Source: a virus (Duplodnaviria; Caudoviricetes). Taken from it: a stretch of DNA of 64,000 bases. The notes under the pieces are model-generated. The model had not been told where the DNA came from. It did no database searches and saw nothing but the letters and a program-made list of their open reading frames with translations. Positions 1-48,174 of this stretch are shown in pieces. The position numbers and the translations under genes are program-made. Within the stretch, counting starts at the first letter, position 1, and each line of letters begins with the position of its first letter. The stretch lies in the IMG/VR virus record IMGVR_UViG_3300027708_000016. The stretch is one strand, 5' to 3'.

Positions 1-45
1 ATTTAACCGAAAGAGAAACTTTATACATTAACGAAAAATACAATT

Positions 46-705: not shown

Positions 706-729
706 AATATTTTAAATTGCTGATAGAAT
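702..729 (+). promoter_or_regulatory. sigma70-like promoter for gp47
   Basis: TTGAAA(702-707)-16 nt-TAGAAT(724-729), ATG at 737. Confidence 0.5.
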
Positions 730-736
730 AGTCTTA

Positions 737-1795
737 ATGAAAATTTCTAGTAAAAAAATAGGATGTTTTTCTGATATTCACATAGGTTTAGGTCAAGATG
801 GCAAACAATGGCACGATATTGCTTTGAAATTTGCTAAATGGGCATCCGAAAAATATAAAGAACTTGGTATTGATGAAATTATAATACCAGGCGATATATT
901 TCACAATAGAAGCGAAATCAATGTAGCTACTTTAGCTACAGCAAAACAATTTTTTGATTATTTTAAAGATTTTACCGTTTATATTTCTAGCGGAAATCAC
1001 GATTGCTTTTACAAAAACAATAGCACGGTTAACTCTATATCAATTTTATCTGGATGGAACAATATTTTAATTATTGATAAAGAATGCGTTGTTCTTAAAA
1101 CACCTTATAAAGATATTGTTATGGTTCCTTGGGGCGTTGAATATGATCAAATACCAAAAACAGACGGTATAATATTTGGTCATTTTGAAATCAGTTCGTT
1201 TTATATGAATTCCTACAAGGTATGCGAACATGGAATGGAATCTAAACAACTTTTTAAAAAGTCTCCTATGATTATTTCTGGTCATTTCCACAAAAAGGAC
1301 GATAGAAAATATGATAAAGGTAGAATTGTTTATTTAGGTAGTCCATATCAACATAATTTTGGAGATACTGGTGATAGCAGAGGAATTTATGTATTAGATT
1401 TAGAGAAAACCGAACTACAATTTATAGAAAATAATATTTCACCTAAACATCTTAAACTTTCAACTAAAGCATTTGTGGAAAACCCCGAATCTATAAAAAG
1501 TGAATTGTTAAAGGAACAATTAAAAAACAATATTGTTAGTTTAATTATTGATACCGAAATTGATCAAGAAAAACTTGCACTTTTAACTTCAAAATTGCAA
1601 ATAATAGAACCATTATCAATTAGAACTGATTTTATTACAGATAATACAGGTATTGAAACGCTCGACAATACAAAGGAAATAGATTCTGGCAACTTAATTA
1701 AAGATATGGAGGATTTTGTAAACAACTTAACCATAGAAAACAAACAAGAGGTCATTGATTATCTGACCGAATCTTATAATTTATTATCTAAATGA
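737..1795 (+). CDS. gp47: Recombination endonuclease, Mre11/SbcD-like metallophosphoesterase subunit (gp47)
   Basis: Phosphoesterase motifs SDIHIG, GDIFHNR, GNHD, GHFE, SGHFH, YLGSPYQHNFGD. Confidence 0.92.
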   Translation: MKISSKKIGCFSDIHIGLGQDGKQWHDIALKFAKWASEKYKELGIDEIIIPGDIFHNRSEINVATLATAKQFFDYFKDFTVYISSGNHDCFYKNNSTVNSISILSGWNNILIIDKECVVLKTPYKDIVMVPWGVEYDQIPKTDGIIFGHFEISSFYMNSYKVCEHGMESKQLFKKSPMIISGHFHKKDDRKYDKGRIVYLGSPYQHNFGDTGDSRGIYVLDLEKTELQFIENNISPKHLKLSTKAFVENPESIKSELLKEQLKNNIVSLIIDTEIDQEKLALLTSKLQIIEPLSIRTDFITDNTGIETLDNTKEIDSGNLIKDMEDFVNNLTIENKQEVIDYLTESYNLLSK

Positions 1796-2565
1796 ACAAT
1801 TTAATAGGAATAGGCATTCTTGACCTTTATACACAAGAAGATTTACAAAATTGTTGGGATTCCATTCCTGACAAGTATAAAAATCATGATGATTTATTGA
1901 CTCGTGTTTTTGTGGTAAGCAACAATGATAATAAACCAATAACTGATGCCCAGACAAAAAAATACTCAACTGCTGTTCAAATGGCAACAATGAGAAATTA
2001 TCTTGTTTCTCAAATGAGACTAAAGGGATGCAAATATTATTTTCTTTTACACTCTAATGTGATTATTAAAGATCCAGAAATATTTGAAAAAACACTTAAA
2101 TTAGCAGATACTTTCGGTACATGGGTAATCATGGGTCCTTCCACAATAGATCAAACAATTGAAGACGATAATGGGTTAAATTTAAACCTTTCAAAGAATT
2201 TAAATTCTGAATTTATGTTTTTATTTTCAGGAATTGTAAAAAACAATGGTTATTTTGATGAAAAGTTTTTTAATGGAAAAGATATTGATGTATTGGATTA
2301 TGTTTTAAAATTAAGAAATAAAAAAGCATACCCTGCTACAAATTATCATCCAATAATATCAGAAGGTTTAGAAATTAAAAAAACGCAAATTAATAAATTG
2401 GGATTAAAGGATATTCCTGACATAGACAGAAGCGTTCAAATAAGTTATGCAAACTTTTTTAATACGCACAAGTACATCCCAACCGAAACCGATCCCCCAC
2501 ACGTATCAGAAAAAGAACTTTTAGCATCAATGGAGGAAATTCAAAAAAATTATGCAAAACGGTAA
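1792..2565 (+). CDS. Divergent GT2-like protein (possibly degenerate glycosyltransferase)
   Basis: N-terminus LIGIGIL and GYFDEKF resemble the two downstream GT2 paralogs; YYFLLHSNV where they have IFL(M/I)EDD. Confidence 0.45.
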   Translation: MNNLIGIGILDLYTQEDLQNCWDSIPDKYKNHDDLLTRVFVVSNNDNKPITDAQTKKYSTAVQMATMRNYLVSQMRLKGCKYYFLLHSNVIIKDPEIFEKTLKLADTFGTWVIMGPSTIDQTIEDDNGLNLNLSKNLNSEFMFLFSGIVKNNGYFDEKFFNGKDIDVLDYVLKLRNKKAYPATNYHPIISEGLEIKKTQINKLGLKDIPDIDRSVQISYANFFNTHKYIPTETDPPHVSEKELLASMEEIQKNYAKR

Positions 2566-3367
2566 AATAGGAGTTGGATTAATAACATGCGATAGACCTA
2601 ATTTCTTTAATAAAAGTTTTTTATCTATTAAAGATATACCAAATATAGATATAGTCGTAGTGGATGATGGCATAACACCAGTTGTTGATGAAACTTTTGA
2701 AGTTGCATCTATTAAAACAATAGGCAAAATAGGTGTTGGTAAAGCAAAAAACAAAGCTTTAAAATATCTATTAGATAATAATTGTGAACATATTTTTTTA
2801 ATGGAAGATGATATTTTTATTAAGAATGGTGAAGTTTTCCAAAAATACATCGACACTGCTCTTAACACGGGCGTTAAACATCTTAATTTTGGATTGCATG
2901 GAAACCACAATCTTGATCTTAATAAAAAACCAATCGTCAGAAAGACCATAAATTATACTGATGGTTGTAAAATAGATTTGTACCCCAATCTTCTTGGTGC
3001 ATTTAGTTATTACCATAGAGATGTTTTAGATAAATGCGGGTTAATGGACGAAGAATACTATAATGCACTTGAACATGTTGATCATACCTATCAAATTATA
3101 AAAGAAGGATACCATCCTCCGTTTAGATGGTTTGCTGATATTCATAATTCCCAAAATTACCTTGAAGATATTGTTGAAGATCACAAAGAAAGTAAAATTA
3201 GATCGGATGAGGATTTTCACAAAAAATTTATAACAGCATTAGATATTTTTATTAAGAAAAACAACTTTTCAGTAATTGGCAATTACGGACCCCAAGAAAA
3301 AAATTACACAATCCAAGAAGTAATACAAAATCTTATAACAATTCACGAAAAATATGCCAGAAAATGA
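2552..3367 (+). CDS. Glycosyltransferase family 2 (GT-A fold)
   Basis: KIGVGLITCDRP, IVVVDDG, GVGKAKNKAL, HIFLMEDD (DxD-like), GLMDEEY, EHVD. Confidence 0.85.
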   Translation: MQNGKIGVGLITCDRPNFFNKSFLSIKDIPNIDIVVVDDGITPVVDETFEVASIKTIGKIGVGKAKNKALKYLLDNNCEHIFLMEDDIFIKNGEVFQKYIDTALNTGVKHLNFGLHGNHNLDLNKKPIVRKTINYTDGCKIDLYPNLLGAFSYYHRDVLDKCGLMDEEYYNALEHVDHTYQIIKEGYHPPFRWFADIHNSQNYLEDIVEDHKESKIRSDEDFHKKFITALDIFIKKNNFSVIGNYGPQEKNYTIQEVIQNLITIHEKYARK

Positions 3368-4136
3368 AAAAATAGGTGTTGGTATAACCACTTATAATTC
3401 AGAAGGGTATTTTAAGACTCTTTATGATTCTCTTCCTCTTGATAAGATTGACGAATTGGTTGTAGTTAATGGTGGAGATCGTTATGAGGGAAAATATGAA
3501 TGTGATTGGATACAACATAATAAAAACAGGTATCCTTCAGTGTGTAGGAATGATTGTATAACATTTTTGTTAAATAAACAATGTCAACACATTTTTTTAA
3601 TTGAAGATGACATGATTATAAAAAGTCCAAATATTTTTAATGAATATATCAATGCATCAAAGATTACGGGATTAAATTATTTTTGTTTTGCCAGTATATC
3701 AGTGGATGCGGGTGCTGCGCACGAAAGAACACCAAAATTAAAAGTAAATTATGGAAATTTACTAGAAGTTTATTTTTATAATAATACCTGCAACGAATTT
3801 ACCTATCATCATAGAAGTTGTTTTGAAAAAACAGGGTTATATGATGGAAACATGAGAGAATTATTTGATGCAGATATGGTTTATCGTCAAACCTTAAAAC
3901 ATCCAAATATTTCTCCTTTTTGGTGGTTTAGTGACCTCGGTAACAGTGATGATTTAATAAAAAATAATCCAGATGCGCACAGTCGATTACAAACCGATAG
4001 ACCAGACGGCTCAAGAGAACAGACTATTGTTGGAACAATGCAGTATTTTAAAAATAAACATAGTTTAGCAGTTAATGAAATACCAATTAAAACGGAACTT
4101 GAGGTTGTTGATCATTTAAAAAAAATAAAACCATGA
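3354..4136 (+). CDS. Glycosyltransferase family 2 (GT-A fold)
   Basis: KIGVGITTYN, LVVVNGG, SVCRNDCI, HIFLIEDD, GLYDGN; paralog of the preceding ORF. Confidence 0.82.
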   Translation: MPENEKIGVGITTYNSEGYFKTLYDSLPLDKIDELVVVNGGDRYEGKYECDWIQHNKNRYPSVCRNDCITFLLNKQCQHIFLIEDDMIIKSPNIFNEYINASKITGLNYFCFASISVDAGAAHERTPKLKVNYGNLLEVYFYNNTCNEFTYHHRSCFEKTGLYDGNMRELFDADMVYRQTLKHPNISPFWWFSDLGNSDDLIKNNPDAHSRLQTDRPDGSREQTIVGTMQYFKNKHSLAVNEIPIKTELEVVDHLKKIKP

Positions 4137-4915
4137 AACTTGCTATAGGAATTAATATATTTGGATGTTATAAAAGACAAGATCATTGTATTGAAGTTTT
4201 AAACAAACTTGTATCCAAATATACAAATGACATAGAATTATATAATATAACATTTGAAAATGAAAAAAATTATTTATTGGGGTTTAAGCACTTACCATTA
4301 TTAAAACGAACCGCCAAAGATGTTGCGTTATATTCAATATCAAATAAACCAATAGCAAAAGATTTTTTTGATATTCTTTCTGAGCAAGATTGTGATTACT
4401 TTCTCTTTGTTAACAGTGACATAATGGTTACTGAAAAATTAATAAAGTTAATTTTAAAAGGCGAATATGAAACGTATTGCGTCTCTAGGCATGATGTTTA
4501 TGAAATAAACGATTTATCAGTTGATAAAATTATGCCTTTTAGAATTGAAATAGCTGGATTTGATGCATGGGCAGTTAAAAAAGATTGGTGGATTAAAAAT
4601 AGAGATTTATTTGACGATTATATTTACGCAGAAGCATTATGGGACGTTTTCTTTTCGGTTCAAATGTACAATAATAGTAATTGCATACTTTGTAATAAAG
4701 ATGTTTACTTGGCTCATGAAAAACATGAATTAAAATGGAATGAATTTTCAGCAGAGCATACACATAATGAAAAATTATGGAAAAGTACACCTTATCACGA
4801 AAGGTGGCATAAATTCATATACGATTATTTAACACAAAGACCAACATGGGGTCATTTTTTATACCCATTACCAGATGAGCTTGAAAAAGAAAAAGAATAT
4901 TTAAAAATTAAATGA
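4133..4915 (+). CDS. Putative glycosyltransferase (GT-A-like)
   Basis: DYFLFVNSDI (DxD-variant), VSRHD, AGFDAW, WD motif; glycan-island context. Confidence 0.55.
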   Translation: MKLAIGINIFGCYKRQDHCIEVLNKLVSKYTNDIELYNITFENEKNYLLGFKHLPLLKRTAKDVALYSISNKPIAKDFFDILSEQDCDYFLFVNSDIMVTEKLIKLILKGEYETYCVSRHDVYEINDLSVDKIMPFRIEIAGFDAWAVKKDWWIKNRDLFDDYIYAEALWDVFFSVQMYNNSNCILCNKDVYLAHEKHELKWNEFSAEHTHNEKLWKSTPYHERWHKFIYDYLTQRPTWGHFLYPLPDELEKEKEYLKIK

Positions 4916-5580
4916 AATATATAAATAAATTTTACGAAAAGATATACATTATTCATTGGAAACCTTTAAAAGAAAGAAAAGAATATTTGTCTAAAAAACT
5001 TGAACAGCTTAATTTTTCACATTTAGTGGAATGGGTCGATCAATATGAAACCGAAGAAAATTTACACGGTATTAAAAATGTTTTTAAACTAAATCTAAGA
5101 CTTCTTGCTGTTAATATGTCACATATCTACTGTTACGAAGAACAAATTAAGCACCAATATAAAAACATTCTAATTTTAGAAGATGATATAGATTTTGGAG
5201 AACTAGACATCTTAACTTATTTGGATCAAGTTGCATTTGAATTTCAACAATTAGATGGAGATATTGCATTTCTAAGCACTTGTTGTGGATTAAAGGTTAA
5301 AAAATTAAAACCACCAACTTTATTATATTATGATAAAAATTACGTAACCCGTTGCATGGGTGCTTATGTTGTAAATCTAAGATGCGCTGAAAAATTAATA
5401 GCAATGTGTACAAATTACCATGCAATAGACAGAGTTTTAAATTATTCTTTGCCTCTTATAAATGTAAGAGTATTATGGTCGGGTTTACCTATTAGACAAG
5501 GCAGTGAAACAGGCAAGTATAAAAGCAGCTTTCCACTAGAAATAAGAGATGCTAACGGTAATTACAAAAATATATCATGA
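4912..5580 (+). CDS. Glycosyltransferase family 25-like
   Basis: KIYIIH...ERKE, SHIYCY, ILILEDDI, GAYVVN, AIDR; typical GT25 pattern. Confidence 0.75.
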   Translation: MKYINKFYEKIYIIHWKPLKERKEYLSKKLEQLNFSHLVEWVDQYETEENLHGIKNVFKLNLRLLAVNMSHIYCYEEQIKHQYKNILILEDDIDFGELDILTYLDQVAFEFQQLDGDIAFLSTCCGLKVKKLKPPTLLYYDKNYVTRCMGAYVVNLRCAEKLIAMCTNYHAIDRVLNYSLPLINVRVLWSGLPIRQGSETGKYKSSFPLEIRDANGNYKNIS

Positions 5581-6170
5581 AACTAGAATTAATTAAAAAA
5601 TATTTTAACCCGCAAACCATATTAGATATAGGTGCACATCATGGCGAATTTAATCATCATTGTAGAGCTTATTTTCCTAATAGTTACATATTTTCAATTG
5701 AAGGTAATGAATTATGCGAAGAAATTTTAAAAAATAATAATTGTTTATATCTTATAGCACTTTTAGGTAAAGAAAAACAAAAAACCATTTTTTATAAAAC
5801 AAAACTTGATTTACATTGCACAGGTAATTCTCTTTATAAAGAGTTGACAACTCATTATAATGATATTAATTTAATAAAAGAAGAAAAAGAACTTCAAACT
5901 TTAGATGAAATTTTTTCAGCTAATGAAACTTTTGATTTGATTAAAATAGATACACAAGGTTCCGAGTTAGATATTTTAGAAGGAGGCAAAAAAATAGTTC
6001 AAAACGCAAAAGGCATTTTATTGGAAGTTTCCATAAAACCTTATAACGAAGGCGCACCGTTATATAATGATGTAATAAATTATATGAATAGCATAGGATT
6101 TGAAAATAAAGAATTTTTAGATGGTTCAATGGAATCAATTCAAGCAGATATTCTTTTTATAAAAAAATGA
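5577..6170 (+). CDS. FkbM-family SAM-dependent methyltransferase
   Basis: ILDIGAHHG, SIEGN, TLDE, DLIKIDTQGSELDILEG, LLEVS. Confidence 0.88.
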   Translation: MKLELIKKYFNPQTILDIGAHHGEFNHHCRAYFPNSYIFSIEGNELCEEILKNNNCLYLIALLGKEKQKTIFYKTKLDLHCTGNSLYKELTTHYNDINLIKEEKELQTLDEIFSANETFDLIKIDTQGSELDILEGGKKIVQNAKGILLEVSIKPYNEGAPLYNDVINYMNSIGFENKEFLDGSMESIQADILFIKK

Positions 6171-6859
6171 AACTTTATACCGTTTTTACAGAGTCACATT
6201 ATGAAATGTTCAAAGACTATTTTATTAAATCTTTTCCCTTTGACACGAATTTAGAATTAGTAATTAAATTCAAACCACAGGTTTGTGCATCATCAGAGTT
6301 CCAAAGTGAAGGGTGGAGAGATACTATGAAATATAAAGTTCAATGTTTCATTGATGCTGCATATGAAACAAAAGATGGCGAATGTTTTATGTTTTCAGAC
6401 CCAGATATACAATTTTTTAAACCATTCCATGATGATGTTGTTAAAGAACTAGGTGATTTTGATGCAGCATTCCAAAATGATTATGGTGGCGGTGTTAATA
6501 CGGGATTTTTTATAATGAGATCCACCCCAAAAACTCGTGCATTTTTAAAAACCGTTCAAGGAAATCTTGAAAAATTTCCAGAAGAACAAGTTTGTTTTAA
6601 TTATATAATCAATAACTTTGACAAATTGCCAAAAGTTGCATATAAATGGAAGATGCTACCAAGAGAATATTGGACTTATGGTGAAAAAGCAATACAGATG
6701 GGTGTTAATGGACAACCTTTTAGCACATGGAGTGGAGAAGGAGATTTTGATATTCCTGAGAACATAATAATTCATCATGCTAATTGGGCAACACCATTCA
6801 AAAACAAAATAAAAATTCTTGATGTCGTAAAGGAAAAATACAATGCTAGAAACATTTAA
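6167..6859 (+). CDS. Nucleotide-diphospho-sugar transferase (GT77-like)
   Basis: FMFSDPDIQFF (DxD), FQND, VNTGFFIMR, EQVCFN, IHHANW, K-x-K tail. Confidence 0.72.
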   Translation: MKLYTVFTESHYEMFKDYFIKSFPFDTNLELVIKFKPQVCASSEFQSEGWRDTMKYKVQCFIDAAYETKDGECFMFSDPDIQFFKPFHDDVVKELGDFDAAFQNDYGGGVNTGFFIMRSTPKTRAFLKTVQGNLEKFPEEQVCFNYIINNFDKLPKVAYKWKMLPREYWTYGEKAIQMGVNGQPFSTWSGEGDFDIPENIIIHHANWATPFKNKIKILDVVKEKYNARNI

Positions 6860-9175: not shown

Positions 9176-9183
9176 AAATTAAT

Positions 9184-9927: not shown

Positions 9928-9972
9928 TTTATTAAATAGTATTAAAATTTATAATGTAACATCAATTATATT

Positions 9973-10671
9973 TTAAACCCATACTCTAAAAGATAATCTT
10001 CTATTTCTAAAATTTAAAAAATCACTTGGTTCAATAAATTCTATATTTCCTGCGATATGATTAAGCATATGTGCATCAAATTGCTCATTGTTTACGGAGT
10101 TTTCGCAAAAATGTTTAATTTGATCATCAGATAAATCTTTTAATTTTAAAAAATTATTATAAGAAGTAATAAAAAAATGGCTACTTGTTTCTGTTCTATT
10201 AAACTGTTTGTCTCCTATATGGAAACATGGTGATACGTTGGCATTTTCATTAAAAAATTTCTCAGCATCTTTAATTCTTACAAAATTATCATGTCTAGAT
10301 CTAATGATATAATCATATTTTTTATTGTTTTCTTTTAGATATTTAGCAATATAAATCAAATTGTATGCAAAAAAAGGAAATCCATCATCACGACATTGAT
10401 GATATTGACTCATATCTTTCTGTTCCAAAAAAATTGGAATATCAACAACATCTTTTATTTGTTCATTTAAAAGGTTGATATCATAATCATAAAGATAATT
10501 TGCGCCTTCGTTTACTTTATGATTGCTATAGGTTCCTTTTTTGGGATACCAAGTTAAAAAAATAACTTCGACATCATGAGTCGGAAAGCAATCCTTTAAT
10601 GCTTGAATATTGGTTTTAATATCATCTAAACACTCTCTAATTGCGCCTACAAAAATCAATCCTAATTTCAT
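9973..10671 (-). CDS. Hypothetical glycan-island protein; paralog of 13053..13778
   Basis: Shared motifs KLGLIFVGAIR / VIFLTW / YDYIIRSRHD. Confidence 0.5.
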   Translation of the reverse strand: MKLGLIFVGAIRECLDDIKTNIQALKDCFPTHDVEVIFLTWYPKKGTYSNHKVNEGANYLYDYDINLLNEQIKDVVDIPIFLEQKDMSQYHQCRDDGFPFFAYNLIYIAKYLKENNKKYDYIIRSRHDNFVRIKDAEKFFNENANVSPCFHIGDKQFNRTETSSHFFITSYNNFLKLKDLSDDQIKHFCENSVNNEQFDAHMLNHIAGNIEFIEPSDFLNFRNRRLSFRVWV

Positions 10672-10677
10672 TGATAA

Positions 10678-10684
10678 TATTTAT
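10678..10684 (-). promoter_or_regulatory. T4-like late promoter (ATAAATA) for the inverted 3-gene block
   Basis: Minus strand reads GATAAATA-ttatca-ATG(10671). Confidence 0.5.
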
Positions 10685-10722
10685 CACATGTTGATTTTTT
10701 TCAAGTATTGATATTTATTGTA

Positions 10723-11472
10723 ATGGAAAGTGATATTAACATATTGATACCAATGGCAGGATTAGGCAGCAGATTTGCACATACCCATCCCAACCAATTA
10801 AAACCACTAATTGATGTTTGTGGGGTGGCAATGATTAAAAGAGTAATTGAAAATTTAAATCAAAGCCAAAACGCAAATTTTATATTTGTGATACCTAATA
10901 TTTTGAAAAATAACAAGGATTTTTTTAATATATTAAATGAATCAAACATAAAATACAAAATATTAGTAACAGAAACCCTTACGGAAGGACCCGCTTGCAC
11001 GGCTTTATTAGCAAAAGATTTTATAAACAACAACACGCCATTAATAATAACTAATTGTGATCAATACATTGCAGATTTCAGTTTAAATGACCTATTAACT
11101 TTTTCAAAAATAAACAATGCACATGGAGTTGTTGGTGTATTCCATTCTAATTCGAATAAAAATAGTTATATTAAACTAGGAAATGATTTAAGAATACAGG
11201 AAATTAGAGAAAAAATTGTCATTAGTAATATTGCAACTAATGGTTTGCATTTTTGGTCTAAAGGTGTTTATTTTGTTGAGTCGGCAGAAAAAATGATTTC
11301 TAAAAATGAAAAATATAATAATGAATATTATATAGCACCTTCTTATAATAATATGATAACAGATAACAAAAATATTTTACCATACTATTATAATTTACAT
11401 TTTCCAATCGGAACGCCCGACGATTTAAACATTTTTGTAAATGAAGTATTTAAAACTATAAAACACAAATGA
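10723..11472 (+). CDS. Sugar-phosphate nucleotidyltransferase (NTP_transferase / RmlA-GlmU-like fold)
   Basis: NILIPMAGLGSRF, KPLIDV, TEGPACTA, LIITNCDQ, EIREK, EYYIAPSYN, PIGTPDDL; ATG at 10723 preferred over TTG at 10708. Confidence 0.85.
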   Translation: MESDINILIPMAGLGSRFAHTHPNQLKPLIDVCGVAMIKRVIENLNQSQNANFIFVIPNILKNNKDFFNILNESNIKYKILVTETLTEGPACTALLAKDFINNNTPLIITNCDQYIADFSLNDLLTFSKINNAHGVVGVFHSNSNKNSYIKLGNDLRIQEIREKIVISNIATNGLHFWSKGVYFVESAEKMISKNEKYNNEYYIAPSYNNMITDNKNILPYYYNLHFPIGTPDDLNIFVNEVFKTIKHK

Positions 11473-12356
11473 AAAAATTAAAAATAAACTTTGTAGACTT
11501 TTGGCCCAACCTATTTAAAGATGATAATTACTTCTATAATCTTTTAAAAACAAAATATGATGTTGAAATAGATGAAGAAAACCCTGATATATTATTTTTT
11601 TCGGTTGATTACAATAACGAAAGAAACAGGGATAGATATAAAAACTGTTTAAAAATCTTTTATACGGGTGAAAACGTTGAACCAAATTGGAATGAATGCG
11701 ATTTAGCTTATACTTTCAGACATTCAAATGATCCAAGGGAATATCGTTTGCCTTTATGGGCATTGCATTTGAATTGGTTTAATAGACCCTATATCGCAGA
11801 AAGAGATCATGCTTATTTACACGATTTAGAGTCATTTTTAGATAAAACCAAAATTAAAAAACTAAACAAAACTGGTTTTTGTTCATTTGTTGCATCACAA
11901 CCCAAAGGAAAAAGAGTTGATTTTGTTCCAAAGCTTTTTAATTACAAACCAGTACATTGCGCAGGACGTTTATATAATAACATAGGTGATGTTTTAGTTT
12001 GTAGAGGTGACCAAATAGAAAAAATAAACTTTTTAAAAAAATTTAAATTTAATATCGCAATGGAAAACACATCTTGTCAAGGTTATTGCACAGAAAAAAT
12101 AATACATTCAATGTTTGGAATGAATATTCCCATATATTGGGGATCAACATCTGTTGAAAGCGATTTTAATCCAGAATCCTTTATTAATTGTCATAATTTT
12201 TCTTCTGATGAAGAAATTATAGAAAAAATTAAAGAATTGGACATGGATGTAGAAAAATATGTTGATATGTTAAAAAAACCTTGGTTTAAAGATGGTAAAA
12301 TTCCAGATTCCGTTCAACCTGATAATGTTATATCTTTAATATCTAATAAAATATAA
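11469..12356 (+). CDS. Alpha-1,3-fucosyltransferase-like (GT10)
   Basis: KINFVDFW, PDILFFS, FYTGEN, FCSFVAS, KFNIAMEN...GYCTEKI, IPIYWG, FNPESFIN. Confidence 0.88.
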   Translation: MKKLKINFVDFWPNLFKDDNYFYNLLKTKYDVEIDEENPDILFFSVDYNNERNRDRYKNCLKIFYTGENVEPNWNECDLAYTFRHSNDPREYRLPLWALHLNWFNRPYIAERDHAYLHDLESFLDKTKIKKLNKTGFCSFVASQPKGKRVDFVPKLFNYKPVHCAGRLYNNIGDVLVCRGDQIEKINFLKKFKFNIAMENTSCQGYCTEKIIHSMFGMNIPIYWGSTSVESDFNPESFINCHNFSSDEEIIEKIKELDMDVEKYVDMLKKPWFKDGKIPDSVQPDNVISLISNKI

Positions 12357-13051
12357 TGAAACCTGATAAAATTTATATAATTCATTATACTAAATTAAAA
12401 GACAGGTATTCAAATTTAATTTCAATTTTAGAAAAATCTAAAATACCTTTTGAATTTATAACACAATATGATAAAGAAGATTTAAAAGAAGATATATTAA
12501 ATAAATTTTATCTACCAAATCCCGAAAAATTTACAAACAAAATTAAACCTTTATGGGATTGTAATATAAATACATTCAGAGTTTTAAGTTCTTCAGAATT
12601 GTCTTGCGCAATTAAACAACTAACTGCTATTAAAAAATTATCTCAAGAGTGTAAAAATTTTGGCATGATCTTAGAAGATGACATTATGTTCGATACGAAT
12701 TTTAATTTACTTTTTAAAAAGTATATCCAAGAAACACCAAACGATTGGGATGCTATTTTTTTAGGTGAAGGTTGCGGTTTTGAATTTCAAAAGTATAAAT
12801 TATCAACAAGTATAAGAAAGAGTGAAAATTCTTATCTAGTCAATAATCCCGCTACAAACTGCGCCGAAGCATATTTATTAAAACCTGATATTGCATCTAA
12901 AATATATGAATCATCATTACCGTTTCAATTAGCTTTTGATTGGGAACTTGCATATCAGTTATATAAATTGAAAGCTAAAACATATTGGTGGTTCCCATCA
13001 ATTGCAAAACAAGGTTCCAGAACAGGACAATATCAATCATCCTTAAGATAA
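12356..13051 (+). CDS. Glycosyltransferase family 25-like
   Basis: KIYIIHY...DR, SCAIKQ, MILEDDI, WDAIFLG, AEAYLL; C-terminus KQGSRTGQYQSS matches RQGSETGKYKSS of 4912..5580. Confidence 0.75.
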   Translation: MKPDKIYIIHYTKLKDRYSNLISILEKSKIPFEFITQYDKEDLKEDILNKFYLPNPEKFTNKIKPLWDCNINTFRVLSSSELSCAIKQLTAIKKLSQECKNFGMILEDDIMFDTNFNLLFKKYIQETPNDWDAIFLGEGCGFEFQKYKLSTSIRKSENSYLVNNPATNCAEAYLLKPDIASKIYESSLPFQLAFDWELAYQLYKLKAKTYWWFPSIAKQGSRTGQYQSSLR

Positions 13052-13052
13052 A

Positions 13053-13778
13053 ATGAGAATAGCAATTTGTTTATCAGGGTTAACTAGATCCATGTGGTAT
13101 TGTTTTCCTGTATTAAAAGAATATATAATAAACGAATTAAATGCAGATGTTTTCTTACATACTTGGGAAATAGATAACGGTGGGCAAACTCCATGCGATG
13201 ATGCAGCAAAATCATGTTCCATCGAAGAAAAAAAAGAATATATTGAAAACAGAATAAAACCAAAAAGATACGTAATAGAAAATTACAACGATTTTTTACA
13301 AAAATACCCAAGCCAAACTCATCCATCAACTGCTCCCATGTATTATTCAATCATGAAGTCTAATGCCCTAAAAAAAGAATATGAATTGGAAAATAATTTT
13401 AAATATGATGTTGTTTTTAGGATAAGAATGGACGTAATGTTTGATACTACGATTGATAAAGAAGAATTAAAAAACGTCATAGAGCAAAAAAAACTATATA
13501 TAGGTTACCATAGTGTAGATAAAATTGAATCTCAACCAAAAATAAGTGATTTTTTTGCTTTTTCAACTTCTGAAAACATGGATTATTATTCGGATGCATT
13601 CAAATTATGGGAAAATAATAGATATTTAAATGGAGAAGATGTATTGAATACACATATATTAAATGCAAATTTAAAATATAAATGGACTAACACGAAAATG
13701 AAATTAACCTACCGTTGGCAAACGTGTAGAGCATATTTCGCCTATGCATATAGACAAAATTTTGCATATCAGGATTGA
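13053..13778 (+). CDS. Hypothetical glycan-island protein; paralog of 9973..10671
   Basis: RIAICLSGLTR, ADVFLHTW, MYYSI, YDVVFRIRMD, ISDFFAFS. Confidence 0.55.
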   Translation: MRIAICLSGLTRSMWYCFPVLKEYIINELNADVFLHTWEIDNGGQTPCDDAAKSCSIEEKKEYIENRIKPKRYVIENYNDFLQKYPSQTHPSTAPMYYSIMKSNALKKEYELENNFKYDVVFRIRMDVMFDTTIDKEELKNVIEQKKLYIGYHSVDKIESQPKISDFFAFSTSENMDYYSDAFKLWENNRYLNGEDVLNTHILNANLKYKWTNTKMKLTYRWQTCRAYFAYAYRQNFAYQD

Positions 13779-13802
13779 TTTTTTAAAATTTTATTATATA
13801 AT
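13775..13802 (+). promoter_or_regulatory. sigma70-like promoter
   Basis: TTGATT(13775)-16 nt-TATAAT(13797-13802), ATG at 13811. Confidence 0.55.
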
Positions 13803-13810
13803 TCTTTTAC

Positions 13811-14773
13811 ATGAAAAAAATTGCTTTTTATTTGCCGCATATTGATATACAAGGAACAGGGGTGTCAGTTTTAGATTATTGTAAATTTAATCAAGAAATT
13901 CTTGGTAATAAATCATTTATGATTCATGATTTAAATCATCCAGCCAATCATGAACTAGCCATTGAAAAATTTAAAAATAATAATATAGAAATAATATCTT
14001 TGAAGGGTAACGAAGATACGAATGAATTGGAAAGAAAATTGGACGAACTCAAAGTTGATGCAGTTTACATTCAAAAAACAGGAAGAAAGGATGACGGCAG
14101 ATTTGCTAAAAATAAACCTTCATTCATACATGTAATAGGAACCCAAAATGATCCTCACGGGACAGTCTATGCTTATGCTAGTGAATGGTTAAATCAGCAT
14201 TGCACAGGGGGAACTTATCCAGTTGTTCCTTATATGGTTCATCTACCTGAACACCATGACAATTTTAGAGATAAACTAAAACTACCCGAAAATGCAATAG
14301 TTTTTGGTAGAACAGGTGGAATATATTCTTGGAACATGCCTTGGGTTAGTCAGACTATAGAAAAAGCACTCTCGTTAAGAGATGATATATACTTTTTATT
14401 CGTACAGACCCCTCAATTTATAAAACACGAAAGAGTTATATATACAAGTCCATTTTCTGACCTTTATATAAAAAGAAAATTCATTAACACATGTGATGCA
14501 ATGATTCACGCAAGAGCAGAAGGCGAATCATTTGGTATGGCTTGTGCAGAATTTTCTTATAGTAATAAACCAGTTATAACATATAGTAATTCACCAGAAA
14601 GAAATCATATTTACGTTTTAAAGGATAAAGGTTTATATTATGATTCTCCTCAAACACTGTTAGATATACTTTTAAAATTTGAAATTCAAGATAAAGATTG
14701 GAATGCCTATCGTGAATTTACGCCAGAATCAGTAATTAACCAATTCAAAAAGGTTTTTATTGATAAAATATGA
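13811..14773 (+). CDS. GT-B fold glycosyltransferase (GT4-like)
   Basis: GTGVSVLDY, VFGRTGG, CDAMIHARAEGESFGMACAEF, KPVIT. Confidence 0.78.
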   Translation: MKKIAFYLPHIDIQGTGVSVLDYCKFNQEILGNKSFMIHDLNHPANHELAIEKFKNNNIEIISLKGNEDTNELERKLDELKVDAVYIQKTGRKDDGRFAKNKPSFIHVIGTQNDPHGTVYAYASEWLNQHCTGGTYPVVPYMVHLPEHHDNFRDKLKLPENAIVFGRTGGIYSWNMPWVSQTIEKALSLRDDIYFLFVQTPQFIKHERVIYTSPFSDLYIKRKFINTCDAMIHARAEGESFGMACAEFSYSNKPVITYSNSPERNHIYVLKDKGLYYDSPQTLLDILLKFEIQDKDWNAYREFTPESVINQFKKVFIDKI

Positions 14774-15090
14774 AAATTCTAAATATAGAAGATTTTATAG
14801 GTGGATGGTTCATTGGAGATTTTGAACCATCGGTTTTAAAAACCAAAGATTTTGAAGTTTGTTTTAAAAAACATGTTAAGGATGAAATTTGGCCCAAACA
14901 TTATCATCGAATAGCAACCGAAATTAATTATTTGATTAAAGGTGAAATGATAATACAGGGTAAACTACTAAAAACGGGTAATATTTTTATCTTAGAACCA
15001 AATGAATGGGCTAATCCAGTATTTTTACAAGATTGTGAACTTATAGTAGTAAAAACACCTTCTATAAAAGGTGATAAATATGAAAATTAA
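14770..15090 (+). CDS. Small cupin-fold protein
   Basis: GWFIGDFEP, WPKHYHRIATEINYLIKGEM (H-x-H...E cupin motif), FILEPNE. Confidence 0.8.
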   Translation: MKILNIEDFIGGWFIGDFEPSVLKTKDFEVCFKKHVKDEIWPKHYHRIATEINYLIKGEMIIQGKLLKTGNIFILEPNEWANPVFLQDCELIVVKTPSIKGDKYEN

Positions 15091-15118
15091 TTGACTTTTT
15101 TACTATTTATTATATAAT
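15091..15118 (+). promoter_or_regulatory. sigma70-like promoter of the RLP gene
   Basis: TTGACT(15091)-16 nt-TATAAT(15113-15118), ATG at 15128. Confidence 0.6.
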
Positions 15119-15127
15119 ATTATTATT

Positions 15128-16342
15128 ATGCTTAAATACGACATTTTTAAACCAGAATACAAATTAGACTCTTCCTTCTTTGCTAATTATTTTATTGTAA
15201 CATACTTAATTGGTTCAAAAACCGATTTAAAAGATGCCGCATGGAATCTAGCTATCGGGCAATCAATTGGAAATCCAAGTAAGCGTTCCGAATTTGAGAG
15301 CCAAGATTTGATTGACAATCATTGTGCTATTATTTTACATGATGAAAAATCCTTAGAGAATCTTAAAGAAGGTATTGTTAAGATTGCTTTTGCTGAAGCA
15401 AATATTAACTTTAAAACGGACGGAGTATCCCAATTGCTAGTCCAAATAATGGGAGGTCAATGTGACATTGATATTTTTGAAAAGTGTGTTATTAAAGATA
15501 TAAAATTAACTCCAAATATGGAGAACTGTTTGCAGGGACCTAAAATTGGTCTAAAAGAAATGAGAGAATATTGTGGTGTATCACAGGAAAAGCCTTTATT
15601 TGGTGGGATTGTGAAACCAAAAGTTGGTCTTTCGCCACAAAAAAATCTTGATTTGGTAAAAAAACTCATTGATGGCGGCTGTAACTTCATAAAAGAAGAT
15701 GAAATTCTTTCAGATCCCGATCATTGTAGAATTGAAGATCGTGTTCCCCCTGTAATGGATTATATTAAAAGCACTAATGCAAAAGTTTATTACGCAGTTT
15801 CAATCCATTCCGATCCTGCACACATTTTAAATCGTGTTAAGCAAGTTTATGAATTGGGTGGAAATGCTGTTCATGTAAATTTCCATTGTGGATTAGGTGT
15901 TTATAAGTCTATTAGAGAACTTGATTTACCAATTCTAGTTCACTTCCAGAAAAGCGGTGATAAAATTTTAAATTGTTATGATCATAAATTTGCAATTGAT
16001 CAAGATGTAATCTTTAAACTTGTTGGGCAAAGTGGCTGTTCGACGCTTCATGCTGGTATGATCGGTGGATACATGGATAATGAAACACAGGCGGTAAAGA
16101 AGACTATTTCCATGTTGAATGATATAAATTGCGTCCCAGCTTTAAGTTGTGGAATGCACCCAGGTTTAATTGATTATATTTTAGATGTGGTTGGACATAG
16201 CAACTGGATGGCAAATGTCGGCGGTGCATTAACATCACATCCAAGTGGTACTTTGGCAGGTACAAAGGCTATGAGACAAGCAATCGATAAGAATTACGGG
16301 GATGAATATCATCAAGCCATTGAAAAATGGGGTAAGAAATGA
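15128..16342 (+). CDS. RuBisCO-like protein (form IV RLP, RuBisCO large-subunit superfamily)
   Basis: GGIVKPKVGLS (K175/K177), NFIKEDEIL (K201/D203/E204), LVHFQK (H294), LHAG (H327), PALSCGMHPG, NVGGALTSHPSGTLAGTKAMRQA; 404 aa. Confidence 0.93.
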   Translation: MLKYDIFKPEYKLDSSFFANYFIVTYLIGSKTDLKDAAWNLAIGQSIGNPSKRSEFESQDLIDNHCAIILHDEKSLENLKEGIVKIAFAEANINFKTDGVSQLLVQIMGGQCDIDIFEKCVIKDIKLTPNMENCLQGPKIGLKEMREYCGVSQEKPLFGGIVKPKVGLSPQKNLDLVKKLIDGGCNFIKEDEILSDPDHCRIEDRVPPVMDYIKSTNAKVYYAVSIHSDPAHILNRVKQVYELGGNAVHVNFHCGLGVYKSIRELDLPILVHFQKSGDKILNCYDHKFAIDQDVIFKLVGQSGCSTLHAGMIGGYMDNETQAVKKTISMLNDINCVPALSCGMHPGLIDYILDVVGHSNWMANVGGALTSHPSGTLAGTKAMRQAIDKNYGDEYHQAIEKWGKK

Positions 16343-16755
16343 TAGTAATTTCTCATAGAGGGAATACTACTGGCCCAGTTAAACAAACCGAAAATCGACC
16401 CCAAACAATTCAACCTTTATTGGATAAAAATATCCACGTGGAAATTGATGTTTGGTTAATAGGTGACAGTTTTTTCTTGGGTCATGATGACCCTTTATAT
16501 AAAACCGATATAAAATTTTTATTACAAAAAAATCTCTGGTGTCATGCAAAAAACTTAAAATCATTAGAAGAAATGTTAAAACACGATATTAATTGTTTTT
16601 GGCATGAAAACGATAAACACACTTTAACATCTAATGGTTATATTTGGACTTATCTTAATCAAAAAACATGTGATAAATCCATAATAGTTGATTTATCAAA
16701 AAACTGGAAAGAAAAAAATTATAATTGCTATGCCATTTGTGTTGATTACTTGTAA
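16339..16755 (+). CDS. Short GDPD/PLC-like phosphodiesterase-fold protein
   Basis: MIVISHRGN, EN, HVEIDVW, FLGHD, LWCHAKN, ICVDY. Confidence 0.72.
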   Translation: MIVISHRGNTTGPVKQTENRPQTIQPLLDKNIHVEIDVWLIGDSFFLGHDDPLYKTDIKFLLQKNLWCHAKNLKSLEEMLKHDINCFWHENDKHTLTSNGYIWTYLNQKTCDKSIIVDLSKNWKEKNYNCYAICVDYL

Positions 16756-16776
16756 AAACAATTTATAATTAGGTAA

Positions 16777-18585: not shown

Positions 18586-18614
18586 TAAACTGACACAAAT
18601 TTATAAATTTACAT

Positions 18615-19968: not shown

Positions 19969-19974
19969 TGAATA

Positions 19975-48146: not shown

Positions 48147-48174
48147 AATAATATTTATGCCTTAGTTCTTATTA

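What the first reader, a model, noticed from the sequence alone, without database searches (positions are those of the whole stretch)
1792..16755. ~15 kb glycosylation island splitting the gp47-gp46 pair
Seen: 19 consecutive ORFs, nearly all glycan-related, separate gp47 from gp46; many overlap by 1-14 nt. Established: gp47 and gp46 are neighbours in T4 and act as one Mre11/Rad50 complex. Inference: this is a hypervariable island, possibly exchanged by recombination in the conserved flanks. It could build a complex glycan on the virion (shielding, host range) or remodel the host surface (superinfection exclusion).
Basis: partly seen in the sequence, partly recalled or inferred. Interest (0 to 1): 0.72.

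Follow-up and report, generated by a model that had tools for sequence, protein, structure and literature searches.

The report
Variable sugar-building island in phage
A divergent T4-like phage carries a 15-kb block of about 20 sugar-chain-building genes wedged between its two DNA-repair nuclease genes; relatives carry differently stocked versions at the same spot, and this one includes a RuBisCO-like enzyme that probably helps make an unusual activated sugar.

Summary
Window 1792-16755 holds 20 tightly packed ORFs (not 19), 99.5% coding, between a gp47 and a gp46 homologue. About 13 are glycosyltransferases or GT-like. The rest are an FkbM methyltransferase, a weak HAD-like match, one unknown, and a four-gene module: sugar nucleotidyltransferase, small cupin, form IV-like RuBisCO-like protein (RLP) and GDPD-like protein.

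All nine IMG/VR relatives with both flanks have a 6.2-16.7 kb island at the same junction; cyanophages P-SSM2 and S-CAM9 have one 92-aa ORF there. Three GT-A paralogues next to gp47 are kept in all nine relatives. The rest changes by cassette gain, loss or replacement at gene borders. The closest relative has an NDP-heptose-type module where the window has its RLP-module genes. So the island is hypervariable, but through internal cassette turnover, not whole-island exchange through the flanks.

No island protein has a membrane helix, and relatives lack the hydroxymethylase family (ThyA) that T4-type DNA glycosylation depends on. I favour virion-protein glycosylation (~0.4), then host-envelope remodelling (~0.3); neither is shown.

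In 8 of 8 other genomic contexts the RLP sits beside the same nucleotidyltransferase and cupin inside glycan clusters. That gives a testable role to phage RLPs, reported in 2019 with unknown function.

Glycosyltransferase-rich hypervariable islands are already known in aquatic T4-like phages. The scan's earlier first-reader notes flagged this island and its RLP module on this same genome. This is a new variant of a known kind.

The parts
737..1795 (+). gp47 (Mre11/SbcD-like nuclease subunit), left flank
   Evidence: Metallophos E 4.9e-9. 80-81% identical to G001/G002 and 57-60% to G003-G005.
1792..4136 (+). o03, o04, o05: three paralogous GT-A glycosyltransferases, the core kept in every relative
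   Evidence: phrog_2456/1579 glycosyltransferase, E 7e-27 and 8e-18. Paralogy shown. The o04 model (pLDDT 88.9) is a GT-A fold, with TarS, TarP, B4GALNT1 and GnT-I as best PDB matches. Present next to gp47 in 9 of 9 relatives. The nearest cultured-phage homologues are cluster F1 mycobacteriophage glycosyltransferases.
4133..4915 (+). o06: possible HAD-type phosphatase
   Evidence: Hydrolase_3 E 9.8e-4, below the Pfam cut-off. 69-73% identical in G001/G002.
4912..5580 (+). o07: GT25 glycosyltransferase
   Evidence: Glyco_transf_25 E 4.1e-9.
5577..6170 (+). o08: FkbM-type methyltransferase, probably a sugar O-methylase; present in G002, absent in G001
   Evidence: Methyltransf_21 E 3.2e-15. Presence and absence.
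6167..6859 (+). o09: nucleotide-diphospho-sugar transferase (GT77-like)
   Evidence: Nucleotid_trans E 2.5e-10.
6843..7724 (+). o10: exostosin GT47 / RXYLT1-like glycosyltransferase
   Evidence: Exostosin_GT47 E 3.9e-19; RXYLT1_C E 1.2e-11.
7721..8482 (+). o11: probable GT34-like transferase, the most conserved island gene
   Evidence: No Pfam or PHROG match. Atlas feature search gives phage clusters carrying PF05637, score 0.97; this is a lead only. 85-87% identical in G001/G002, dN/dS 0.08.
8477..10684 (-). Inverted three-gene cassette: o14 (DUF7796-like), o13 (GT11-like), o12 (unknown), headed by a late-promoter-like ATAAATA at 10678-10684. It lies in the segment where G001/G002 have a GDP-mannose-dehydratase-like gene instead.
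   Evidence: o13: Glyco_transf_11 E 2e-4 and phrog_2644 E 6e-6. o14. Motif. Replacement. Lowest third-codon-position GC (GC3) in the island, 0.13-0.17.
10723..11472 (+). o15: sugar-phosphate nucleotidyltransferase; donor module, part 1. The likely start is the ATG at 10723, not the TTG at 10708.
   Evidence: NTP_transferase E 2e-9. phrog_3980 E 5e-53. Homologues sit beside the RLP in 8 of 8 contexts. Start codon.
11469..12356 (+). o16: GT10 alpha-1,3-fucosyltransferase-like
   Evidence: FucT_N E 1.3e-21; Glyco_transf_10 E 9.6e-19.
12356..13051 (+). o17: GT25 glycosyltransferase, paralogue of o07
   Evidence: Glyco_transf_25 E 9.5e-12. Paralogy.
13053..13778 (+). o18: DUF7796-like protein, probably GT-A fold
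   Evidence: DUF7796 E 4.7e-6, just below the cut-off. phrog_13607. The model is low-confidence (pLDDT 66) with weak GT-A matches. Homologues recur beside the cupin and nucleotidyltransferase in other phages.
13811..14773 (+). o19: GT-B (GT1-like) glycosyltransferase, kept in seven of the nine relatives
   Evidence: Glycos_transf_1 E 1.9e-4. Orthologues at 36-54% identity in G002, G003, G005, L007 and L016. Also found in L004, L008 and L010, fragments lacking the gp47 flank. 42% identical to a gene in the glycan cluster of cyanophage S-SKS1.
14770..15090 (+). o20: 106-aa cupin; donor module, part 2
   Evidence: Invariant H-x-H-x4-E-x6-G motif. PDB profile best match is a 113-aa cupin named mannose-6-phosphate isomerase, E 0.0018. 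The homologue in L038 carries Pfam Cupin_2. phrog_24762 E 2e-35.
15128..16342 (+). o21: form IV-like RuBisCO-like protein, not a carboxylase; donor module, part 3
   Evidence: RuBisCO_large E 1.6e-34. All NCBIfam equivalog scores are far below their cut-offs. Active-site motifs read from the alignments.
16339..16755 (+). o22: short GDPD-like phosphodiesterase-fold protein; donor module, part 4
   Evidence: Invariant HRGN, E-N, E-x-D and GHD motifs. PDB profile best matches are glycerophosphodiester phosphodiesterases, E 0.011. phrog_34507. Found beside the RLP in 6 of 8 contexts.
16777..18585 (+). gp46 (Rad50/SbcC-like ATPase subunit), right flank
   Evidence: SMC_N and AAA_23 domains. Matches annotated gp46 genes.
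18615..19943 (+). o24: glycosyltransferase just outside the island, between gp46 and DNA polymerase; kept in all 16 related loci and more conserved than gp46 in the more distant relatives
   Evidence: phrog_7162 glycosyltransferase E 9.5e-20. 65-82% identical in L001-L016, where gp46 is 44-83%.

Best explanation
The island is a lineage-specific, modular glycan-assembly island in the replication and recombination gene block of a divergent, low-GC T4-like myovirus.

How I think it works:
- About 13 soluble cytoplasmic glycosyltransferases and a sugar O-methyltransferase build a branched, partly methylated, probably fucose-containing oligosaccharide.
- A conserved inner set primes a conserved acceptor. 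This set is three GT-A paralogues next to gp47, plus the GT-B o19 in seven of the nine relatives, plus the GT o24 just past gp46.
- A rapidly changing outer set of transferases and donor-sugar modules diversifies the glycan from phage to phage.
- In this phage the extra donor comes from a four-gene module: nucleotidyltransferase o15, cupin o20, RuBisCO-like protein o21 and GDPD-like o22. I infer that it turns a ketose phosphate into an unusual nucleotide-activated sugar or polyol phosphate. The product is unknown.
- The acceptor is most likely the phage's own virion proteins, giving a glycan coat as in cluster F1 mycobacteriophages and chloroviruses.

Shown: gene content, position, variability, modular turnover, purifying selection, lack of membrane or lipid-carrier machinery, and the RLP-nucleotidyltransferase-cupin linkage.
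Inferred: the inner/outer division of labour, the module's chemistry and the acceptor.

I put 0.9 on 'variable glycan-assembly island' and about 0.4 on 'acceptor is the virion'. The overall confidence covers the whole statement.
For: - Content: family matches for glycosyltransferases, the methyltransferase and the nucleotidyltransferase. o04 is a confident GT-A fold with an E-D-D motif.
- Position and variability: 9 of 9 relatives have a 6.2-16.7 kb island between gp47 and gp46. The gp47-proximal core is shared and the gp46-proximal content differs. In the relatives scanned, the differing genes are mostly glycan genes too:
  - G001: GT1, TylF and FkbM methyltransferases, SIS, transaldolase, GHMP kinase, cytidylyltransferase-like and epimerase, which together look like an NDP-heptose route.
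  - G003: GT7, GT2, FkbM and HtrL.
- Turnover: breakpoints lie at gene borders.
- Selection: shared genes have dN/dS 0.08-0.23, with dS like the flanks.
- Soluble machinery: no hydrophobic 19-residue segment in any island protein of the window or eight relatives, once o15 starts at 10723.
- Link to virion glycosylation:
  - o04's nearest cultured-phage homologues are glycosyltransferases at the right end of 558 Mycobacterium phage genomes, including Rita (30% identity, E 1e-7).
  - Che8 and Rita virions are reported as glycosylated (PMC11256854, citing Freeman 2023).
- Timing: the inverted cassette starts 6 nt after an ATAAATA. The same motif lies 5-7 nt before six other genes, including ones beside the tail sheath gene (7 observed, about 0.05 expected).
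- Donor module:
  - 8 of 8 independent RLP contexts place an o15-like nucleotidyltransferase and an o20-like cupin beside the RLP inside glycan clusters; 6 of 8 also have an o22 homologue.
  - Cyanophage Bellamy has homologues of o15, o20, o18 and o22 without the RLP.
Against: - No virion protein, glycan or acceptor motif was identified, so the acceptor is pure inference.
- Homology of o04 to the mycobacteriophage glycosyltransferases is remote and of generic GT-A type.
- Several families here and in relatives are best known from lipopolysaccharide or lipo-oligosaccharide core synthesis: GT25, GT10/11, WavE, HtrL and the heptose route. Those enzymes are also soluble or peripheral.
- Published interpretations of similar clusters in pelagimyophages and cyanomyophages favour host-surface change (PMC7029224, PMC12801897).
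- Most island genes are co-oriented with early or middle replication genes and preceded by sigma-70-like promoter motifs. Only one cassette has the late-type motif.
- The module's chemistry rests on gene association and weak profile matches for o20 and o22 (E 0.0018 and 0.011).
Confidence: 0.42

Rival explanations
1. Host-envelope remodelling. The enzymes act during infection on the host's lipid-linked glycans (LPS or LOS core, O-antigen, capsule precursors). This changes the cell surface to block superinfection or adsorption of progeny to infected cells. Host flippases and ligases do the export.
For: - GT25, GT10 and GT11 are classic LPS/LOS families.
- Relatives carry HtrL_YibB and an NDP-heptose-type route.
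- A WavE gene sits in two RLP contexts.
- In the cellular contig L029 the same donor module lies in a cluster with a Bac_transf priming transferase.
- This is the reading published for pelagimyophage and cyanomyophage clusters (PMC7029224; PMC12801897).
- Most island genes share the orientation of early and middle genes, which suits action before lysis.
Against: - No membrane protein, flippase, polymerase, ligase or polyprenyl-phosphate transferase occurs in the island of the window or eight relatives.
- The inner glycosyltransferases are conserved with the phage clade, not with any host.
- A lytic T4-like cycle leaves little time for new LPS to reach the surface (my inference).
- One cassette carries the late-gene motif shared with tail genes.
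Confidence: 0.3
2. DNA hypermodification. The transferases glycosylate modified bases in phage DNA to escape restriction, as T4 alpha- and beta-glucosyltransferases and other phage DNA glycosyltransferases do.
For: - The island lies inside the replication and recombination block.
- The conserved glycosyltransferase o24 sits between gp46 and DNA polymerase in all 16 related loci.
- From memory, not checked here: T4's alpha-glucosyltransferase gene lies near genes 47 and 55, and phage DNA can carry multi-sugar glycans (Pyle 2024, cited in PMC12619734).
Against: - No ThyA-family dCMP/dUMP hydroxymethylase (PF00303) in five relatives, including one 92% complete.
- ThyX, which makes ordinary dTMP, is present in four of the five.
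- No Tet/JBP match, although the control for that search did not ring, so it says little.
- Thirteen or so transferases, a methyltransferase and donor modules are far more than known DNA glycans need.
- The rest of this phage's roughly 218-kb genome could not be searched.
Confidence: 0.06
3. No coherent pathway. The junction is simply a permissive insertion site where unrelated glycan genes accumulate, each acting alone or not at all.
For: - T4-type genomes are known to have plastic regions between core modules (Comeau 2007, cited in PMC7029224).
- Content differs greatly between relatives.
- Two cassettes have lower GC3 than the rest.
Against: - 99.5% coding, with 14 of 21 junctions overlapping, which suggests translational coupling.
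- All shared genes are under purifying selection.
- Content is functionally coherent in every relative scanned, with mostly glycan genes.
- Donor modules occur together with matching transferases. In G001/G002 a GDP-mannose-dehydratase-like gene sits next to the fucosyltransferase.
- A GT10-GT25-GT-B set travels with the RLP module in a separate phage contig, L039.
Confidence: 0.12

Closest known systems
Hypervariable glycosyltransferase-rich regions of pelagimyophages and cyanomyophages (host recognition cluster; LPS / 'cell-wall synthesis' clusters of P-SSM2, S-SCSM1, S-SCSM2R, S-SKS1, Bellamy)
   Same: - Aquatic T4-like myoviruses.
- Many soluble glycosyltransferases plus nucleotide-sugar enzymes in a non-syntenic region between conserved modules (PMC7029224; PMC12801897).
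- Direct homologues exist. The S-SKS1 cluster has o10 (42%), o16 (36%), o19 (42%), o07, o17, o18 and o15 homologues. Bellamy has o15, o20, o18 and o22 homologues.
   Different: - Those islands lie in or near the structural and tail-fibre region, between VrlC and gp14 in pelagimyophages. This one splits the gp47-gp46 pair inside the replication block.
- In P-SSM2 and S-CAM9 that junction holds one 92-aa ORF.
- No tail-fibre genes here.
- The RLP is absent from all 50,697 cultured-phage records searched.
Virion glycosylation system of cluster F1 mycobacteriophages (Che8, Rita)
   Same: Phage-encoded soluble GT-A transferases. o04 matches the right-end glycosyltransferases of these phages. Their capsids carry glycans (PMC11256854).
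   Different: - Those phages have two to four transferases, not about 13.
- They are temperate siphoviruses of actinobacteria.
- Identity is only about 30% over 74% of o04.
- No acceptor motif was found here.
Chlorovirus and giant-virus capsid glycosylation machinery (from memory: PBCV-1 A064R, A075L, A111/114R)
   Same: Virus-encoded cytoplasmic transferases of families better known in eukaryotes (exostosin-like, fucosyltransferase), combined with sugar methyltransferases. A conserved core glycan carries strain-specific decorations.
   Different: Eukaryotic host. No sequence comparison was made here. This is a resemblance recalled from memory and is a lead only.
Phage 'form IV-like' RuBisCO-like proteins (Jaffe et al. 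2019, PMC6389311)
   Same: About 400 aa, on myovirus-type contigs near 200 kb, related to CPR (candidate phyla radiation) bacterial copies, with a partly conserved active site. o21 has more than 2,500 homologues, the listed ones at 54-76% identity.
   Different: That paper left the function open. Here the RLP is always linked to a nucleotidyltransferase and a cupin inside glycan clusters (8 of 8 contexts), which points to nucleotide-sugar synthesis.
T4 alpha/beta-glucosyltransferases (DNA glucosylation)
   Same: Glycosyltransferase genes within the early replication region of a T4-type genome.
   Different: Relatives lack the hydroxymethylase family (ThyA) that T4-type DNA glucosylation needs. 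The number and kinds of enzymes go far beyond DNA glucosylation.

Membership tests
Phage hypervariable glycan-gene island (as in pelagimyophages and cyanomyophages) | Several glycosyltransferases plus nucleotide-sugar enzymes clustered together | tested here: met
   Ten ORFs with glycosyltransferase family or PHROG matches and three more GT-like ORFs, plus FkbM and NTP_transferase.
Phage hypervariable glycan-gene island (as in pelagimyophages and cyanomyophages) | Non-syntenic content between relatives, flanked by conserved core genes | tested here: met
   Nine relatives, islands of 6.2-16.7 kb, different gp46-proximal content, breakpoints at gene borders.
Phage hypervariable glycan-gene island (as in pelagimyophages and cyanomyophages) | Under-recruitment of metagenomic reads across the island | not testable with these tools
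Phage hypervariable glycan-gene island (as in pelagimyophages and cyanomyophages) | Location in the structural or tail-fibre region (host recognition cluster) | tested here: not met
   The island lies between gp47 and gp46 in the replication block. No tail-fibre genes are present.
Virion glycosylation system (mycobacteriophage type) | Phage-encoded transferases homologous to those of glycosylated phages | tested here: inconclusive
   o04 against cluster F1 glycosyltransferases: 30% identity, E 1e-7, 74% coverage. The fold is generic GT-A.
Virion glycosylation system (mycobacteriophage type) | Glycans covalently bound to capsid or tail proteins | not testable with these tools
   Needs virions. 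No Ser/Thr-rich C-terminal tails were seen in the window's structural ORFs, but the major capsid gene was not identified in the window.
Bona fide RuBisCO (forms I-III) | Complete carboxylase active site, including loop-6 Lys334 and His294/Arg295 | tested here: not met
   In the alignment with 8dht, HGHRAMH aligns with HFQKSGD and loop-6 GKLEG with GYMDN. TIGR03326 scores 141 bits against a 497-bit cut-off.
RuBisCO-like protein (form IV sensu lato) | RuBisCO large-chain fold with the carbamyl-Lys/Mg site (KPK; K-x-D-E) kept | tested here: met
   RuBisCO_large E 1.6e-34. VKPKVG and FIKEDE align with the PKPKVG and YIKDDE motifs of 8dht.
Known RLP equivalogs (MtnW enolase, OiaX decarboxylase) | Score above the curated equivalog cut-off | tested here: not met
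   MtnW scores 120 and 99 bits against cut-offs of 409 and 514. OiaX scores 117 against 700.
DNA glycosylation system (T4 type) | ThyA-family dCMP/dUMP hydroxymethylase providing the acceptor base | tested here: not met
   PF00303 is absent from five relatives, one of them 92% complete, and ThyX is present in four. The window's own full genome is not held.
Self-contained surface-polysaccharide locus (Wzx/Wzy or ABC type) | Membrane proteins: priming transferase, flippase, polymerase or transporter | tested here: not met
   No hydrophobic 19-residue segment in any island protein of the window or eight relatives.

The most novel reading that the evidence does not exclude
The phage-type 'form IV-like' RuBisCO-like protein is a nucleotide-sugar pathway enzyme. 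Together with a dedicated nucleotidyltransferase, a small cupin and a GDPD-like protein, it would convert a ketose phosphate into a previously unknown activated sugar or polyol phosphate. The island's transferases would then place this on the virion. The gp47-gp46 island would be a swappable 'serotype locus' of the phage particle itself, with a conserved inner glycan and diversifying outer glycan.
Probability: 0.25. Interest if true: 0.85.

Novelty: new variant of a known kind. Interest (0 to 1): 0.58.

Why it matters
- Function for a mystery enzyme. Phage RuBisCO-like proteins were reported in 2019 without a function. Their strict linkage here to a nucleotidyltransferase and cupin inside glycan clusters turns that open question into a four-enzyme in-vitro experiment.
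- A phage 'serotype locus'. The layout (conserved inner transferases, swappable outer transferases and donor modules) resembles bacterial O-antigen loci. If the acceptor is the virion, phage particles would carry variable glycan coats. That would matter for adsorption, survival, grazing and recognition in aquatic systems.
- Genome architecture. The two genes of a two-subunit nuclease stay co-oriented and functional although 6-17 kb apart. This junction is therefore a tolerated insertion hotspot in one T4-type lineage.

Tried and rejected
- Megablast of window 1-20000 against 50,697 phage records: no match. The phage has no close cultured relative.
- tblastn of the RLP against the same records: no match.
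- The window's own genome is not held, so hydroxymethylase and structural genes outside the 64 kb could not be searched. Relatives were used instead.
- Exact TATAAATA is not enriched (7 found, 13 expected). The generic sigma-70 scan is not above shuffles (145 against 131). Only the positional pattern of ATAAATA 5-7 nt before start codons is meaningful.
- GC and GC3 give no clear sign that the RLP was acquired recently; its GC3 of 0.25 matches core genes.
- Relaxed Pfam scan (E up to 5) of the unexplained ORFs gave nothing usable. o12 stays unknown.
- o12 relatives in IMG/VR (L041, L042) lack o13 and o14 neighbours, so the inverted cassette is not a fixed mobile unit.
- tblastn of o05 found only three weak coliphage hits and did not help with the acceptor.
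- The o18 model was low-confidence (pLDDT 66). Its GT-A matches are weak (TM 0.36-0.48) and count only as a lead.
- Freeman et al. 2023 could not be read. Its result is cited second-hand through PMC11256854.
- The 'moraphage' lineage (PMC12619734) is reported as lying outside the T4 group, with hosts predicted in Bacteroidota. I did not test whether this window belongs to it.
- No complex prediction was run, because the report does not claim that any two proteins bind.

Full report
**What is there**

Window 1-22551 reads, all on the + strand unless stated:
- a gp55-like sigma factor (46-705; weak Sigma70_r2 match);
- gp47 (737-1795; Metallophos E 4.9e-9);
- twenty ORFs (1792-16755);
- gp46 (16777-18585; SMC_N and AAA_23);
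- a 442-aa glycosyltransferase, o24 (18615-19943; phrog_7162 E 9.5e-20);
- family B DNA polymerase (19975-22551).

Further on lie UvsX, a DnaB-like helicase, a gp32-like protein, terminase, baseplate and sheath genes and ribonucleotide reductase. This is a T4-type myovirus. It is far from any cultured phage: megablast finds nothing, and gp46 is only about 28% identical to cyanophage and SPO1-group copies. The protein collection holds a contig of 218 kb with the same RLP.

The island is 99.5% coding. Fourteen of its 21 junctions overlap by 1-17 nt. Three of them (8477-10671) are on the - strand.

**Gene content**

| ORF(s) | Assignment | Evidence |
|---|---|---|
| o03-o05 | three paralogous GT-A transferases | phrog_2456/1579; paralogy; o04 model pLDDT 88.9 with TarS, TarP, B4GALNT1 and GnT-I as best PDB matches, |
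| o06 | weak HAD-like match | |
| o07, o17 | GT25 | |
| o08 | FkbM methyltransferase | |
| o09 | Nucleotid_trans | |
| o10 | exostosin GT47 / RXYLT1_C | |
| o11 | GT34-like, lead only | Atlas features, |
| o12 | unknown | |
| o13 | GT11-like, weak | |
| o14, o18 | DUF7796-like, weakly GT-A | |
| o15 | sugar nucleotidyltransferase | |
| o16 | GT10 fucosyltransferase-like with FucT_N | |
| o19 | GT-B | |
| o20 | 106-aa cupin | |
| o21 | RuBisCO-like protein | |
| o22 | short GDPD-like protein | |

No island protein in the window or in eight relatives has a hydrophobic 19-residue segment, once o15 is started at the ATG at 10723.

**Comparison with relatives**

A scan of IMG/VR with gp46 gave 16 loci. 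Nine have both flanks, and I fetched the full islands of five of them.
- Size. Every one has an island between gp47 and gp46. Sizes are 16.7, 10.9, 10.0, 11.3, 9.6, 7.5, 6.7 and 6.2 kb, against 15.0 kb in the window, which is itself the ninth member of the comparison set.
- Core. All keep o03, o04 and an o05-like gene next to gp47. In the more distant relatives the third paralogue is fused into a 490-710 aa protein. In the one scanned, G003, it also carries GT7 and FkbM domains.
- Also conserved. Seven of the nine keep o19. All 16 loci keep o24 directly after gp46, at 65-82% identity, higher than gp46's own in the more distant relatives.
- Contrast. Cyanophages P-SSM2 and S-CAM9 have gp55-gp47, one 92-aa ORF, then gp46.

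**How the island varies**

Against the closest relative G001 (gp47 81% identical), blastn shows collinear blocks interrupted only at gene borders:
- G001 has an extra GT47-like gene after o05.
- The window has o08 where G001 has nothing.
- Window 8463-11466 (the inverted cassette plus o15) replaces a 344-aa GDP-mannose-dehydratase-like gene.
- Window 13046-16773 (o18 to o22) replaces 7 kb in G001. That stretch encodes GT1, TylF-type and FkbM methyltransferases, a SIS isomerase, transaldolase, a GHMP kinase, a cytidylyltransferase-like protein and an epimerase. I read it as an NDP-heptose-type donor route.

G003 and G004 carry further GT2 genes. G003 also has the GT7/FkbM fusion, another FkbM gene and HtrL. 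The RLP is absent from all five fetched relatives.

Shared genes are under purifying selection (dN/dS 0.08-0.23). Their dS matches that of gp47 and gp46. For most transferases dN is 1.3-3 times higher than in the flanks. So the left half was inherited together with the flanks, and the variability comes from cassette turnover inside the island. This supports 'hypervariable island' but not 'exchange through the conserved flanks'.

**The RLP module**

*Active site.* o21 keeps the KPK motif and the K-x-D-E metal site, a histidine at the His327 position, and the phosphate-binding SxG and GG motifs. By the alignment with 8dht it has Q-K where His294-Arg295 stand, and no loop-6 lysine. It scores far below every curated RuBisCO, MtnW or OiaX cut-off.

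*Distribution.* It has more than 2,500 homologues, the listed ones at 54-76% identity, and none in cultured phages. Jaffe et al. 2019 (PMC6389311) described about 80 such 'form IV-like' proteins on myovirus-type contigs and in Beckwithbacteria, and left the function open.

*Gene neighbourhood.* I looked at eight independent contexts: L027, L029, L033, L034, L035, L038, L039 and L040.
- All eight have an o15-like nucleotidyltransferase and an o20-like cupin beside the RLP, inside clusters of transferases, methyltransferases and epimerases.
- Six also have an o22 homologue.
- L029 is a 372-kb cellular contig where the module lies next to a Bac_transf priming transferase.
- L039 also carries GT10, GT25, an RXYLT1_C protein and an o19-like gene, the same set as the window's right half.
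- Cyanophage Bellamy has o15 (fused to a phosphatase domain), o20, o18-like and o22-like genes but no RLP.
- In S-SKS1 the o15 homologue is fused to a domain annotated as 3,4-dihydroxy-2-butanone-4-phosphate synthase.

*Inference.* The partners of this nucleotidyltransferase (RLP, RibB-like domain, aldolase) all work on ketose phosphates by metal-assisted enolisation. This rests on general knowledge of those families. I therefore infer that the module converts a ketose phosphate into an unusual nucleotide-activated sugar or polyol phosphate. The product is unknown.

**What is glycosylated**

*DNA is unlikely.* Five relatives, one of them 92% complete, lack the ThyA-family hydroxymethylase. Four have ThyX. 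The enzyme set is also far larger than any DNA glycan needs.

*A self-contained surface-polysaccharide pathway is excluded* by the absence of any membrane component. Modification of host lipid-linked intermediates is not excluded. GT25, GT10/11, HtrL, WavE and heptose routes are typical of LPS core synthesis. This is also the reading published for pelagimyophages and cyanomyophages.

*Four points favour virion proteins:*
- The inner transferases are conserved with the phage clade.
- o04's nearest cultured-phage homologues are the right-end glycosyltransferases of cluster F1 mycobacteriophages. Che8 and Rita virions of that cluster are reported as glycosylated.
- The whole machinery is soluble.
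- The inverted cassette begins 6 nt after an ATAAATA. The same motif lies 5-7 nt before six other genes, among them ORFs beside the tail sheath gene (7 cases against about 0.05 expected).

I put the virion at about 0.4, the host envelope at about 0.3 and DNA at about 0.06.

**Novelty**

Glycosyltransferase-rich hypervariable regions are already described in aquatic T4-like phages (PMC7029224, PMC12801897). Phage RLPs are already described too (PMC6389311). Three things are new here:
- the place, splitting the gp47-gp46 pair in a whole clade;
- the layout, with a conserved inner set and swappable outer transferases and donor modules, and two different donor routes at the same position in close relatives;
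- the consistent genomic link between the phage RLP and nucleotide-sugar genes.

I found no paper combining RuBisCO-like proteins with nucleotidyltransferases, glycosyltransferases or nucleotide sugars in this sense. Earlier first-reader notes of this scan had already flagged the island, the RLP module, the late-type motif and o24 on this same genome. I tested those leads here and did not rely on them.

**Limits**

- The cupin and GDPD assignments rest on motifs, weak profile matches and a Pfam-annotated homologue.
- The o18 model is of low confidence.
- dS is near saturation, so the dN/dS values are approximate.

Noticed in passing
window 10678-10684(-), 26335-26341, 29391-29397, 45533-45539(-), 48152-48158(-), 48722-48728(-), 58658-58664: ATAAATA lies exactly 5-7 nt upstream of the start codon of seven genes, including ORFs next to the tail sheath gene. 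About 0.05 cases are expected by chance. It looks like a T4-type late promoter placed so close to the ATG that the transcripts would be nearly leaderless.
   Followed up: partly
window 13774-13809, 15090-15125, 16742-16769: A repeated promoter-like element (TTGAyT, 16 nt, TATAAT) sits in the three intergenic gaps before o19, the RLP and gp46. The first two copies are 78% identical over 36 nt. All three gaps lie in the island's variable right half, and only 16742-16769 is near a breakpoint mapped. They could be early promoters and also give short homology for cassette exchange.
   Followed up: no
window 18615-19943: A 442-aa glycosyltransferase between gp46 and DNA polymerase is kept in all 16 related loci at 65-82% identity. 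In the more distant relatives it is more conserved than gp46 itself. The only cultured-phage homologues are weak: Streptomyces phage Zuko gp5 and phAPEC8-like coliphages.
   Followed up: partly
L022 (G001) 1887-8886, minus strand: The closest relative's island carries transaldolase, a SIS isomerase, a GHMP kinase, a cytidylyltransferase-like protein and an epimerase in a row. This looks like a phage-encoded NDP-heptose-type route that even makes its own sedoheptulose phosphate.
   Followed up: partly
L032 (Synechococcus phage S-SKS1) 6001-7428: The o15-type nucleotidyltransferase is fused to a domain annotated as 3,4-dihydroxy-2-butanone-4-phosphate synthase (RibB-like), inside a glycan cluster that shares o10, o16, o18 and o19 homologues with the window.
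   Followed up: no
L029 8497-11212: A 372-kb cellular contig with type IV pilus and T2SS genes carries the same four module genes in the order GDPD-like, nucleotidyltransferase, cupin, RLP. They lie in a polysaccharide cluster with a Bac_transf priming transferase. The RLP is 68% identical to the phage's. Another homologue, also 68% identical, is labelled Parcubacteria in NCBI.
   Followed up: partly
window 8477-9175 (-): o12 (232 aa) has no match in Pfam, PHROGs, NCBIfam or the cultured-phage records. Only two IMG/VR relatives were found (42-43% identity), in other gene contexts.
   Followed up: partly
window 10708-10722: The longest ORF for o15 starts at a TTG and adds a hydrophobic 5-residue extension. 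The family matches begin about ten residues into that ORF, so the ATG at 10723 is the more likely start.
   Followed up: yes
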